64,000 nt of DNA. Source: a virus (lineage: Duplodnaviria > Caudoviricetes). The translations under genes and the position numbers were made by a program. The DNA lies in the IMG/VR virus record IMGVR_UViG_3300029258_001507, positions 801 to 64,800 of that record. The stretch is one strand, 5' to 3'. Below, piece by piece: positions 33,138-34,188 of the stretch (positions within the stretch are counted from its first letter, which is position 1; each line of letters opens with the position of its first letter). Below the pieces are notes generated by a model. It was not told where the DNA came from, made no database searches, and saw nothing but the letters and a program-made list of their open reading frames with translations.

Positions 33138-34188
33138 CCTGCAATTCCTCTCCGTCTCCCCAGACGTTTCCACTTGCCGCACGACCAACACAACCCTGCA
33201 ATCCCTCTCCCTCTCCCCACACGTTTTCACTTTCTAGCGCAACACTCGCCAAGTACACGTAGCTTTTCCTGCAATCACTCTCACCTTACCCAAAGGTTTC
33301 ACGCCACCGACACGGCATCAGCAGCCCCCCCTGCAATTCCTCTCCGTCTCCCCACACGTTTTCACTCTCCGGCCCACCAGCAGCCATTGACGGACGCATT
33401 CCTGCCTGCAATCACTCTCCCTCTCCCAACACGTTTTCACTCCGGCAGAATCCGCCTTGTACACAACCGCCTCTGGCCTGCAATCACTCTCCGTCTCCCC
33501 AGACGTTTTCACGTCGCCTAACTCGGTCCTGCAATTCCTCTCACTTTACCCAAAGGTTTCACGCCACCGACACGGCATCAGCAGCCCCCCCTGCAATCAC
33601 TCTCCGTCTCCCCAGACGTTTTCACGCACGCTTTCTCGTGTGTAGGTGCGACCAGCAGGACCTGCAATTCCTCTCCGTCTCCCCAGACGTTTTCACAAGT
33701 GCGACGAAGCGCCAACGATCGCAAGCAAGCCGACCTGCAATTCCTCTCCGTCTCCCCAGACGTTTTTTCACCGAAGCTGCAATGAGCAGCGAGTCAAGAC
33801 GACTGCCCCTGCAATCCCTCTCCGTCTCCCCAGACGTTTCCACGTTTTTCGGAAAGGACTCCTGCAATTTCTCTCCGTCTCCCCAGACGTTTTCACTTGC
33901 CATTAGTAGGTCTGTCCGATGTTCGACCACTTTGCCTGCAATCACTCTCCCTCTCACAACACGTTTTCACCCGAAAGCGTGTTCTCCCCAGTGGAGTTTT
34001 TCCGGGCCTGCAATCCCTCTCCCTCTCCCCACGCGTTTTCACGTCCTTGTGTGCCGTCTTCCGGACGATCGTACTCACCCTGCAATCCCTCTCCCTCTCC
34101 CCACACGTTTTCACACATCGCATCCTTTACTCGAAGGCAGGATTCTTTCCAGCCTGCAATCCCTCTCCCTCTCCCCACACGTTTTCAC
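33138..34188 (-). CRISPR. CRISPR array, 16 repeats and 15 spacers; 36-nt repeat GTGAAAACGTGTGGGGAGAGGGAGAGGGATTGCAGG
   Basis: Repeats start on + at 33138, 33195, 33268, 33330, 33405, 33477, 33528, 33590, 33661, 33734, 33808, 33861, 33935, 34007, 34079, 34153; spacers 15-39 nt; orientation inferred from the leader and adjacent gene. Confidence 0.97.

What the first reader, a model, noticed from the sequence alone, without database searches (positions are those of the whole stretch)
33138..34188. Array mixes normal and very short spacers with repeats conserved only at the ends
Spacer lengths in + order: 21, 37, 27, 39, 36, 15, 27, 35, 37, 36, 17, 38, 36, 36, 38 nt. Repeat interiors vary (CCGTCT/CCCTCT, CAGAC/CACAC, ATTC/ATCC/ATCA, one with two extra T), while the crRNA-sense 3' end ATTGCAGG is invariant in all 16. 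Short guides typically support binding without cleavage, which fits a dead effector and a long-maintained regulatory array rather than an adapting immune one.
Basis: partly seen in the sequence, partly recalled or inferred. Interest (0 to 1): 0.7.

Follow-up and report, generated by a model that had tools for sequence, protein, structure and literature searches.

The report
Irregular guide array of phage dead-Cas12f
A phage carries a CRISPR array with uneven spacers and variable repeats next to a miniature Cas12f-like protein that has lost its DNA-cutting residues, so the array most likely guides DNA binding rather than cutting.

Summary
The crRNA-sense 3' end ATTGCAGG is invariant in 16 of 16 repeats. 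The array lies 18 nt downstream, on the same (-) strand, of a 530-aa Cas12f-like protein. That protein has V320 and R421 at the RuvC-I and RuvC-II positions and no Zn-finger or RuvC-III. It belongs to a family of 243 cluster representatives; among the 150 examined, none has acidic residues at both positions. The contig is a 64.5-kb phage with no cas1 or cas2.

Upstream of the gene is a conserved RNA-like element shared with two other viral loci. It ends in a locus-specific anti-repeat, so I read it as a likely tracrRNA. It pairs with repeat positions 18-31, which explains why GAGAG and ATTGCAGG are fixed while the rest of the repeat drifts.

A phage 99.35% identical in the flanks carries the same 21- and 27-nt spacers, but lacks nine units and has one extra. 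The array therefore changes by block loss and duplication.

The short spacers are heritable and no shorter than the 14-16-nt guides published for other dead Cas12f proteins. No target, RNA evidence or longer ancestor was found, so a regulatory role is not shown.

The locus is a new variant of a known kind.

The parts
33138..34188 (-). CRISPR array: 16 repeats (36 nt; two of 35, one of 38) and 15 spacers, read in crRNA sense on the - strand
34207..35799 (-). Gene for a 530-aa nuclease-dead Cas12f-like protein (P0001). V320 and R421 are at the RuvC-I and RuvC-II positions. The structured part ends near residue 470, followed by a disordered K/R-rich tail.
35855..35935 (-). Putative tracrRNA: a conserved stem-loop core (35935-35869) followed by a 14-nt anti-repeat (35868-35855) that pairs with repeat positions 18-31
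33174..33194 (-). Spacer 1, 21 nt; same length and sequence in the relative L047
33513..33527 (-). Spacer 6, 15 nt, between the divergent repeat R7 and R6
33844..33860 (-). Spacer 11, 17 nt, followed (crRNA sense) by the GTGG-variant repeat R11
33268..33365 (-). Unit R4-spacer 3 (27 nt)-R3 (35-nt divergent repeat). It is duplicated at 33528-33625 as R8-spacer 7-R7; the spacers are identical and the repeats differ at 6 positions.
33528..33625 (-). Second copy of the duplicated unit (R8-spacer 7-R7)
32861..33091 (-). Small (77-aa) zinc-ribbon ORF directly after the array. A counterpart stands at the same place in L005 and L062. A terminator-like hairpin at 33011-32990 lies inside it.
32368..32949 (-). 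193-aa protein of no known family. Apart from the effector, it is the only protein shared with the L005 and L062 loci.

Best explanation
The array is the guide store of a phage-borne system derived from type V-F CRISPR-Cas. The order on the - strand is putative tracrRNA, dead Cas12f gene, array.

How it most likely works:
1. The pre-crRNA is read on the - strand.
2. The 14-nt anti-repeat of the tracrRNA pairs with repeat positions 18-31.
3. The last 5 nt of the repeat plus the spacer form the guide end.
4. The protein can bind DNA but cannot cut it, so it silences its targets by occupancy. The targets are most likely rival mobile elements or host genes.

The phage has no adaptation genes. The array changes by recombination between repeats (block loss, duplication) and probably by junction-proximal deletions or by units taken from diverged arrays. 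That would give it mixed repeat types and uneven spacers.

Selection holds only the parts of the repeat that the RNA partner and the protein need (GAGAG and ATTGCAGG). The short spacers are inherited products of this turnover, not a designed class. At 15-27 nt they are still long enough to guide a binder of this kind.

Shown here: the array anatomy, the dead effector, the phage context, the block differences between relatives and the conserved upstream element with matching anti-repeats.

Inferred: transcription and processing, silencing as the output, how the short spacers arose and whether they are usable.
For: Effector:
- A profile of 30 family members hits AsCas12f at E 2e-29 and a solved dead Cas12f (9n9c) at 3.6e-14.
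- The AF2 model has pLDDT 83.2 and pTM 0.70. Its best Foldseek matches are all Cas12f, led by 8j12_A at E 3e-17.
- In 150 family members, 0 have acidic residues at both RuvC-aligned positions, and 1 has a CxxC..CxxC motif after the WxW motif.

Phage context: terminase, portal, head, tape-measure and tail-fibre genes are present, along with Erf, NinG and helicases.

Adaptation genes: no Cas1 or Cas2 was found.

Putative tracrRNA:
- A conserved core stands upstream of the effector in 3 of 3 loci.
- Each core is followed by a stretch complementary to that locus's own repeat, ending 5-7 nt from the repeat's 3' end.
- Cognate duplexes are the best in 3 of 3 cases: -25.2, -16.6 and -24.4 kcal/mol, against -6.6 to -20.4 for non-cognate pairs.
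- All 16 window repeats keep 9-13 of 14 pairs in register.
- G-U pairs in the stems fit the - strand.

Array turnover:
- L047 is 99.35% identical over 3547 nt of flank. It has an extra 30-nt spacer, then spacers 1-4, then goes straight to R14-spacer 14-R15.
- The same junction appears as a loose end in run X7.
- Spacer 3 equals spacer 7 in the window, and spacers 2 and 3 are identical in L062.

Short spacers are stable: spacers 1 and 3 are identical in L047. Contig pieces over spacers 1, 6 and 11 in runs X3, X5 and X7 show 0 differences and no insertions.

Guide length: dead Cas12f homologues use 14-16-nt guides and are active with anything over 10 nt (PMC13472631, passages).

Junction association: 4 of the 5 repeats with a variant 5' end follow a spacer under 30 nt, against 1 of 10 normal repeats. 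Fisher p is 0.017, or 0.041 without the duplicated unit; the test is post hoc.
Against: - No target was found for any spacer, so silencing and the kind of target are unsupported by data.
- There is no RNA evidence of transcription, strand or processing.
- The tracrRNA rests on three loci. Covariation in its stems is weak: 3 compensatory pairs, and 68 of 500 shuffles score as high.
- The repeats nearest the effector (R14-R16) and R2 pair worst with the anti-repeat, with a longest run of 6 pairs. Their duplex energy (-16.6) is within the range of shuffled anti-repeats, which average -14.5 with sd 2.9.
- The guide-length figure comes from a different dead-Cas12f clade, one that uses single guides without a tracrRNA.
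- The relatives that share spacers are near-identical, so older, longer versions of the short spacers cannot be excluded.
- The two other family arrays have uniform 30-nt spacers, so uneven length is not a family trait.
Confidence: 0.55

Rival explanations
1. The array is decaying. Only some units still give working guides. The short spacers, the 35-nt repeats and the repeat type that pairs poorly with the anti-repeat are dead scars carried along because nothing removes them.
For: - There are no adaptation genes.
- The differences from L047 can be explained by losses alone.
- The repeat hairpin is broken in 6 of 16 repeats.
- Duplex energies of R2 and R14-R16 with the anti-repeat are no better than shuffles.
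- Short spacers sit next to altered repeat 5' ends.
Against: - ATTGCAGG and GAGAG are invariant in all 16 repeats, including those that flank the short spacers. This argues for continued selection on every unit.
- The effector frame is intact, and the family is large and conserved.
- The array is identical across runs from sediment (2018) and seawater (2021) studies.
- 15-27 nt exceeds the guide length that other dead Cas12f proteins need.
Confidence: 0.25
2. The array still adapts, using a host Cas1-Cas2 in trans. It serves as binding-only immunity against rival elements, as in type V-M. Uneven spacer lengths and altered repeat ends would then be errors of a non-cognate integrase.
For: - Phage-borne type V loci without adaptation genes that seem to gain spacers next to the gene are described for Cas12r (bioRxiv 10.64898/2026.04.20.719267, passages).
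- The three repeats nearest the effector are identical or differ by 1 nt, as expected if the first repeat is copied at each gain.
- Repeat lengths of 35 and 38 nt and spacers of 15-39 nt could come from imprecise integration.
- The spacers are diverse and match nothing in the phage itself.
Against: - No gain at the gene-proximal end was seen. L047 ends inside the array, so that end could not be compared.
- No Cas1 or Cas2 was found in the assembly, though it is 70% complete and a mixed bin.
- Internal duplicates in two of three arrays point to recombination.
Confidence: 0.12
3. The dead Cas12f is a targeting module for a partner encoded next to it (the 193-aa protein and/or the small zinc-ribbon protein). 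The output would then be more than steric blocking.
For: - In 3 of 3 loci the order is effector, array, small zinc-ribbon ORF, then a homologue of the 193-aa protein.
- Among all ORFs of 50 aa or more in the 8.4-kb and 11.3-kb loci, only the effector and this protein have a match in the window at E 1e-5 or better.
Against: - The partner has no known family or fold lead.
- The zinc-ribbon ORFs give only sub-threshold matches, one of them to NinF, an ordinary lambdoid phage gene.
- Three loci, two of them from one metagenome, are few.
Confidence: 0.1

Closest known systems
Nuclease-dead Cas12f with sigma-E (dCas12f-sigmaE; Hoffmann et al., Nature 2026, PMC13472631; abstract and passages read)
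   Same: Both are miniature Cas12f-fold proteins with a C-terminal truncation that removes part of RuvC, and both would bind DNA under RNA guidance without cutting. The solved dCas12f 9n9c matches the family profile at E 3.6e-14 and the model at E 5e-12.
   Different: The published systems use single chimeric guides, have no tracrRNA and mostly no array, and sit in an operon with rpoE in Bacteroidetes. Here there is a 16-repeat array and a putative tracrRNA, no sigma factor nearby, a phage genome, and loss of the RuvC-I and RuvC-II residues as well.
The 'distinct cluster' of dead Cas12f near CRISPR arrays noted in the same paper (Extended Data Fig. 1a,b), and the inactivated-Cas12f intermediate of Altae-Tran et al., PNAS 2023 (PMC10691335; passages read)
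   Same: A dead Cas12f is kept next to a CRISPR array with a non-coding RNA upstream, and transcriptional repression is proposed.
   Different: The published cases are bacterial, with guides to efflux promoters. A phage setting, uneven spacers and mixed repeats are not mentioned in the passages read.
Canonical type V-F Cas12f (AsCas12f, Un1Cas12f1)
   Same: These are the best sequence and fold matches. The array lies downstream of the gene, and a tracrRNA-type partner pairs with the 3' part of the repeat.
   Different: They are active nucleases with a full D-E-D triad and a Zn-finger. This family has neither.
Type V-M Cas12m
   Same: It protects by binding and transcriptional silencing without dsDNA cleavage and has no adaptation genes (PMC10442227, abstract seen in the listing; PMC10691335, passages).
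   Different: It is a different Cas12 branch: Foldseek E is about 1e-5, against 3e-17 for Cas12f. From recall, Cas12m keeps a RuvC site for crRNA processing and needs no tracrRNA.
Phage-encoded Cas12r-CRISPR of Thermus Lalka phages (bioRxiv 10.64898/2026.04.20.719267; abstract and passages read)
   Same: It is a small type V effector and array on a phage without adaptation genes, used in conflict between mobile elements.
   Different: Cas12r is an active RuvC nuclease (D238A abolishes interference) and uses no tracrRNA.
TldR, TnpB-like nuclease-dead repressors (bioRxiv 10.1101/2023.11.30.569447; listing and abstract only)
   Same: Nuclease-dead relatives of TnpB/Cas12 that repress genes by RNA-guided binding with short guides.
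   Different: They have a single omega-RNA-like guide, no CRISPR array and no tracrRNA.

Membership tests
Type V-F CRISPR-Cas (Cas12f) | Effector homologous to Cas12f in sequence and fold | tested here: met
   The family profile hits AsCas12f at E 2e-29. The top Foldseek matches are all Cas12f, with the best at E 3e-17.
Type V-F CRISPR-Cas (Cas12f) | RuvC catalytic triad (Asp, Glu, Asp) | tested here: not met
   V320 and R421 stand at the first two positions. In 150 family members, 0 are acidic at both. No RuvC-III segment is present.
Type V-F CRISPR-Cas (Cas12f) | C-terminal zinc-finger / target-nucleic-acid-binding segment | tested here: not met
   The alignment to AsCas12f ends at residue 372 of 422-446. 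1 of 150 members has CxxC..CxxC after WxW. Residues 472-530 are disordered.
Type V-F CRISPR-Cas (Cas12f) | CRISPR array next to and downstream of the effector gene | tested here: met
   The array starts 18 nt after the stop codon on the same strand. The same layout holds in L005 and L062.
Type V-F CRISPR-Cas (Cas12f) | tracrRNA with an anti-repeat | tested here: inconclusive
   A conserved upstream core followed by a locus-specific anti-repeat is present in 3 of 3 loci, and cognate duplexes are the best in 3 of 3. There is no RNA evidence and stem covariation is weak.
dCas12f-sigmaE RNA-guided transcription systems | Operon with an ECF sigma factor (rpoE) | tested here: not met
   Pfam scans of nine neighbouring ORFs and of the two flanking proteins gave no sigma-factor hit.
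dCas12f-sigmaE RNA-guided transcription systems | Single chimeric guide RNA, with no array and no tracrRNA | tested here: not met
   A 16-repeat array and a separate anti-repeat element are present. The defining feature is as described in PMC13472631.
Array-associated dead Cas12f cluster (Hoffmann et al., Extended Data Fig. 1) | Placement within that clade of the published Cas12f tree | not testable with these tools
Only the text and the figure legend were read.
Adapting (immune) CRISPR array | Adaptation genes cas1 and cas2 in the locus or genome | tested here: not met
   There were 0 matches for PF01867 and PF09827 in the assembly, with positive controls ringing. The assembly is 70% complete.
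Adapting (immune) CRISPR array | Spacer length set by a ruler (a spread of a few nt) and uniform repeats | tested here: not met
   Spacers are 15-39 nt; there are three repeat types, with lengths of 35, 36 and 38 nt.
Type V-M (Cas12m) | Effector of the Cas12m branch | tested here: not met
   Cas12m2 structures rank 36-41 at E about 1e-5, far below Cas12f, and are not among the 14 profile hits.

The most novel reading that the evidence does not exclude
The dead Cas12f, its tracrRNA and array, the small zinc-ribbon protein and the 193-aa orphan protein form one conserved phage module. In it the RNA-guided binder delivers a partner activity to its targets, and guide length is free above about 15 nt. 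This would be a phage-borne RNA-guided system of a kind not yet described, not just natural CRISPR interference.
Probability: 0.15. Interest if true: 0.8.

Novelty: new variant of a known kind. Interest (0 to 1): 0.6.

Why it matters
Dead Cas12f proteins were recently shown to act as natural RNA-guided transcription factors in bacteria. This window shows a whole family of them (243 cluster representatives). All three members whose surroundings could be read sit on viral contigs and still have a CRISPR array and an apparent tracrRNA. If they silence rival elements or host genes, phages use natural CRISPR interference.

The array shows what a guide store looks like when cutting and adaptation are both gone. 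Only the repeat parts needed for RNA pairing and the protein handle stay fixed, and spacer length is free.

In practice it offers a very small (about 440-530 aa) natural binder with its guide architecture readable from sequence.

Tried and rejected
Family libraries. Pfam, PHROGs and NCBIfam gave nothing for the effector.

Searches for more relatives:
- The search for related loci with P0001, P0007 and P0009 in viral contigs found none.
- The same tool with alignments A1 and A2 was not run because no stretch was conserved enough.
- A back-translated motif pattern gave 3 viral stretches, of which 1 was a true relative, and 40 genome stretches, of which 0 were true by HMM.
- GenBank phages held only a TnpB of Bacillus phage Mgbh1.
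- 60 relatives of the assembly gave one weak hit, E 1.6e-4.
- Ten family clusters were looked up. All come from metagenomes; eight are known only from contigs under 7 kb and two also lie on contigs of 25 and 42 kb, and none has a name.
- The strict tracrRNA-core pattern found nothing in genome contigs. A relaxed one got no answer from the machine three times.

Spacer targets:
- Own assembly: nothing above 14 nt exact.
- GenBank phages: none.
- Plasmids: one chance hit, E 0.3.
- 400 genomes of the phylum: five hits at E 0.002-0.009, which on inspection were G-rich chance matches.
- The L005 and L062 records: none.
- Exact 28 nt of spacer 15 in viral contigs: none.

RNA structure and signals:
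- A self-hairpin in the repeat is present in one type, replaced in the second and absent in the third. I therefore rejected it as the conserved feature.
- The first duplex scan for an anti-repeat was too noisy to use.
- Rfam gave no match.
- There is no sigma-70-like promoter in 32900-36300.

Other:
- No RNA holder was listed among the 11 runs.
- Complex prediction of the effector with the 193-aa protein gave no verdict.
- A homologue search for the 193-aa protein found only the near-identical protein (99%) on the 4179-nt contig of L047, and the Atlas gave no lead above chance.
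Full report
**Observation**

The region 33138-34188 holds 16 direct repeats. The repeat finder reports one family of 14 copies plus a 99-nt duplicate that contains the other two. CCTGCAAT on the + strand (ATTGCAGG in crRNA sense) is present in 16 of 16 repeats.

The motif CCTGCAATNNCTCTC occurs 16 times in the 2.6-Mb assembly, all in this array. The reversed control occurs 0 times.

Aligned in crRNA sense, 22 of 36 repeat positions never vary. These include GAGAG (positions 22-26) and ATTGCAGG (29-36). Variation is concentrated at positions 11, 20, 27 and 28.

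There are three repeat types:
- One has a 5-bp hairpin (R1, R6, R8-R12).
- One has that hairpin broken on both arms (R2, R5, R13-R16); R4 is a hybrid of these two.
- One is a 35-nt type with a different hairpin (R3, R7).

Spacers 3 and 7 are identical.

**The neighbour**

On the - strand the array begins 18 nt after the stop codon of a 530-aa ORF (34207-35799). Pfam, PHROGs and NCBIfam give nothing for this protein. phmmer against PDB sequences gives weak Cas12f hits.

In those alignments the RuvC-I Asp aligns with V320, followed by P321. The RuvC-II Glu aligns with R421.

An exhaustive search of 1.84 billion cluster representatives finds 243 relatives at E 0.001 or better, 186 at 1e-10 and 47 at 1e-30. 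Most are 400-500 aa. A profile of 30 of them hits AsCas12f at E 2e-29, a solved nuclease-deactivated Cas12f (9n9c) at 3.6e-14 and Un1Cas12f1 at about 1e-7. The match stops near residue 372 of AsCas12f, before its zinc finger and third RuvC motif.

An AlphaFold2 model (pLDDT 83.2, pTM 0.70) is ordered to about residue 470 and has a disordered K/R-rich tail. Its best Foldseek matches in the PDB are all Cas12f, led by 8j12_A at E 3e-17.

In an alignment of 150 family members:
- 0 have acidic residues at both RuvC-aligned positions.
- 6 have Glu at the first position and 10 at the second.
- 1 has a CxxC..CxxC motif after the conserved WxW motif.

The whole family is therefore a truncated, nuclease-dead offshoot of Cas12f.

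**Context**

The window is nearly all of a 64,472-nt contig. It carries terminase, portal, head-morphogenesis, tape-measure and tail-fibre genes, together with Erf, a 5'-3' exonuclease, NinG, ParB-like and helicase genes. It is a phage.

The assembly it was binned with has contigs of 33-66% GC. Of 60 relatives of that assembly, one gave a weak hit at E 1.6e-4 and the rest none. The host assignment is therefore unreliable. No Cas1 or Cas2 is found in the assembly, which is 70% complete; the positive controls rang.

**A likely tracrRNA**

Two other family loci were recovered, both from viral contigs:
- L005: an 8.4-kb UViG with a 441-aa effector.
- L062: a 45.4-kb UViG with direct terminal repeats and a 444-aa effector.

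Upstream of all three effector genes, on the same strand, lies a conserved core of about 65 nt (window 35935-35869). It is nearly identical in sequence even though the proteins share only 28-31% identity.

Directly after the core, each locus has a different stretch that is complementary to its own repeat:
- Window: 14 nt at 35868-35855 pair with repeat positions 18-31.
- L005: 11 bp.
- L062: 11 bp.

In each case the pairing ends 5-7 nt before the repeat's 3' end.

Cognate repeat/anti-repeat duplexes are the most stable in 3 of 3 cases: -25.2, -16.6 and -24.4 kcal/mol, against -6.6 to -20.4 for the six non-cognate pairs. G-U pairs in the stems fit the - strand.

The caveats are real. With three sequences, stem covariation is weak: 93.7% of cells are paired, against 27-44% when the partners are slid, but there are only 3 compensatory pairs and 68 of 500 shuffles score as high. 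Rfam has no match, and no RNA data exist.

In register, all 16 window repeats keep 9-13 of 14 pairs. Only the five 'TG' repeats (R3, R5, R6, R8, R13) have runs of 10-12 pairs. R2 and R14-R16 have a longest run of 6, and their duplex energy is within the shuffle range.

The fixed GAGAG and ATT lie in the duplex and GCAGG is the handle next to the guide. The old hairpin region is free to vary.

**How the array changes**

One metagenome contig (L047, 4179 nt) is 99.35% identical to the window over 3547 nt of flank, with 23 mismatches. In + order, its array reads: an extra unit with a 30-nt spacer, then spacers 1 (21 nt), 2, 3 (27 nt) and 4, then directly R14-spacer 14-R15, where the contig ends. 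It therefore lacks the nine units with spacers 5-13 and has one unit that the window lacks. The shared units are identical.

Eleven public runs from nine studies (sediment 2018, seawater 2021) hold the stretch. All are kept as contigs, and four may be the source samples. Four runs were laid:
- Pieces covering spacer 1 (X5), spacer 6 (X7) and spacer 11 (X3, X5) have no differences or gaps.
- No insertions or deletions are listed.
- A loose end in X7 at 34006 reads as the end of spacer 4 joined to R14, which is the L047 form.

L062 also has an internal duplicated spacer and a degenerate last repeat. L005 and L062 both have uniform 30-nt spacers.

The window array thus evolves by block loss and duplication between repeats. 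Its uneven spacer lengths are a feature of this phage lineage, not of the family.

Four of the five repeats with an altered 5' end are preceded (in crRNA sense) by a spacer under 30 nt, against one of ten normal repeats. Fisher p is 0.017, or 0.041 without the duplicated unit. This is post hoc and modest. It points to the spacer-3'/repeat-5' junction as the place where the irregularities arose, either by deletion or by import of units from diverged arrays.

**Are the short spacers too short?**

Hoffmann et al. (PMC13472631; abstract and passages read) report that sigma-E-associated dead Cas12f homologues use 14-16-nt guides. They report strong activity for every guide length above 10 nt. By that measure 15, 17, 21 and 27 nt are sufficient.

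That clade uses single guides without a tracrRNA, so carrying the figure over to this family is an inference. No longer version of any short spacer was seen.

**Targets**

No spacer matched the phage or its assembly beyond 14 nt. Nor did any match GenBank phages or the L005 and L062 records. Plasmids gave one hit at E 0.3. Among 400 genomes of the phylum there were five hits at E 0.002-0.009 per genome, which is chance for 400 genomes and G-rich on inspection. The first 28 nt of spacer 15 had no exact match in viral contigs. A regulatory role is therefore neither shown nor excluded.

**Neighbours**

In all three loci the array is followed by two genes:
- A small zinc-ribbon ORF: window 32861-33091, 77 aa. 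It gives only sub-threshold Pfam matches: NinF in the window, DUF2116 in L005 and Zn_Ribbon_1 in L062.
- A homologue of the 193-aa protein at 32368-32949.

Among all ORFs of 50 aa or more in L005 and L062, only the effector and this protein match the window at E 1e-5 or better. The 193-aa protein has no family or fold lead. A complex prediction gave no verdict.

**Comparison with what is known**

The system works like other binding-only relatives of Cas12: type V-M, TldR and dCas12f. In sequence and fold it belongs to the Cas12f lineage, but it fails the nuclease features that define a type V-F effector.

Two papers mention dead Cas12f next to CRISPR arrays in passing:
- Altae-Tran et al. (PMC10691335, passages) treat it as an intermediate stage.
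- Hoffmann et al. describe a distinct bacterial cluster with guides to efflux-pump promoters.

Whether this family is that cluster could not be tested, because the supplements are closed. My three literature searches found no paper describing a phage-borne dead Cas12f with a tracrRNA and array, or an array of this irregular kind. The nearest phage case, Cas12r, is an active nuclease without a tracrRNA.

**Verdict**

My best reading, at about 0.55 confidence, is a non-adapting, recombining guide array for a phage dead-Cas12f binder with a tracrRNA. In that reading the short spacers are inherited by-products that are still long enough to work.

The locus is a new variant of a known kind. Interest is 0.6.

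Noticed in passing
window 32861-33091 (-); L005 5946-6152 (-); L062 2636-2833 (+): A small zinc-ribbon ORF (66-77 aa, CxxC...CxxC) starts at or inside the last, degenerate repeat of the array in all three loci. It gives only sub-threshold Pfam matches (NinF in the window, DUF2116 in L005, Zn_Ribbon_1 in L062). The effector itself has lost its zinc finger.
   Followed up: partly
window 32368-32949 (-); L005 5474-6046 (-); L062 2751-3290 (+): A protein of about 180-193 aa with no known family and a conserved N-terminal FDDxEFR...DDxxAA...LR...P...W pattern follows the array in all three loci. Besides the effector, it is the only protein the loci share.
   Followed up: partly
window 34207-34400 (-), residues 472-530 of the effector: The effector has a disordered tail rich in K, R and G. 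Its last residues (..DLSKTATQK..) resemble the end of family member P0006 (..NLSQTATQGK..), and several other members have similar basic tails.
   Followed up: no
window 33011-32990 (-): A terminator-like hairpin with a T-run lies 127 nt after the array on the - strand, but inside the zinc-ribbon ORF. It may be coding sequence, a terminator, or both.
   Followed up: no
window 46762-48773 (-): A radical-SAM protein and an NAD-dependent epimerase/dehydratase sit side by side in the phage. GC drops to 47-49% over 44-50 kb, which may mark an auxiliary sugar-modification cassette.
   Followed up: no
window 20568-22322 (-): A protein with three DUF4116 repeats lies next to an N6/N4 DNA methylase.
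   Followed up: no
assembly G000 (contigs C1-C20): The bin mixes contigs of 33% to 66% GC. Among 60 relatives, only one gave even a weak match to the effector family (E 1.6e-4). The phage contig's host cannot be read from the bin.
   Followed up: partly
L062 2420-2551: Two successive repeat-spacer units are 100% identical, so a spacer is duplicated. This parallels spacers 3 and 7 of the window.
   Followed up: partly
window 35850-35836 (-): Just 3' of the anti-repeat, the upstream RNA carries TCGTTCAC, which could pair with the repeat's conserved 5' end (GTGAA..CG). L062 has TTCAC..CCACC at the same place; L005 has nothing comparable. This could be a second repeat/anti-repeat contact, but I did not test it.
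   Followed up: no
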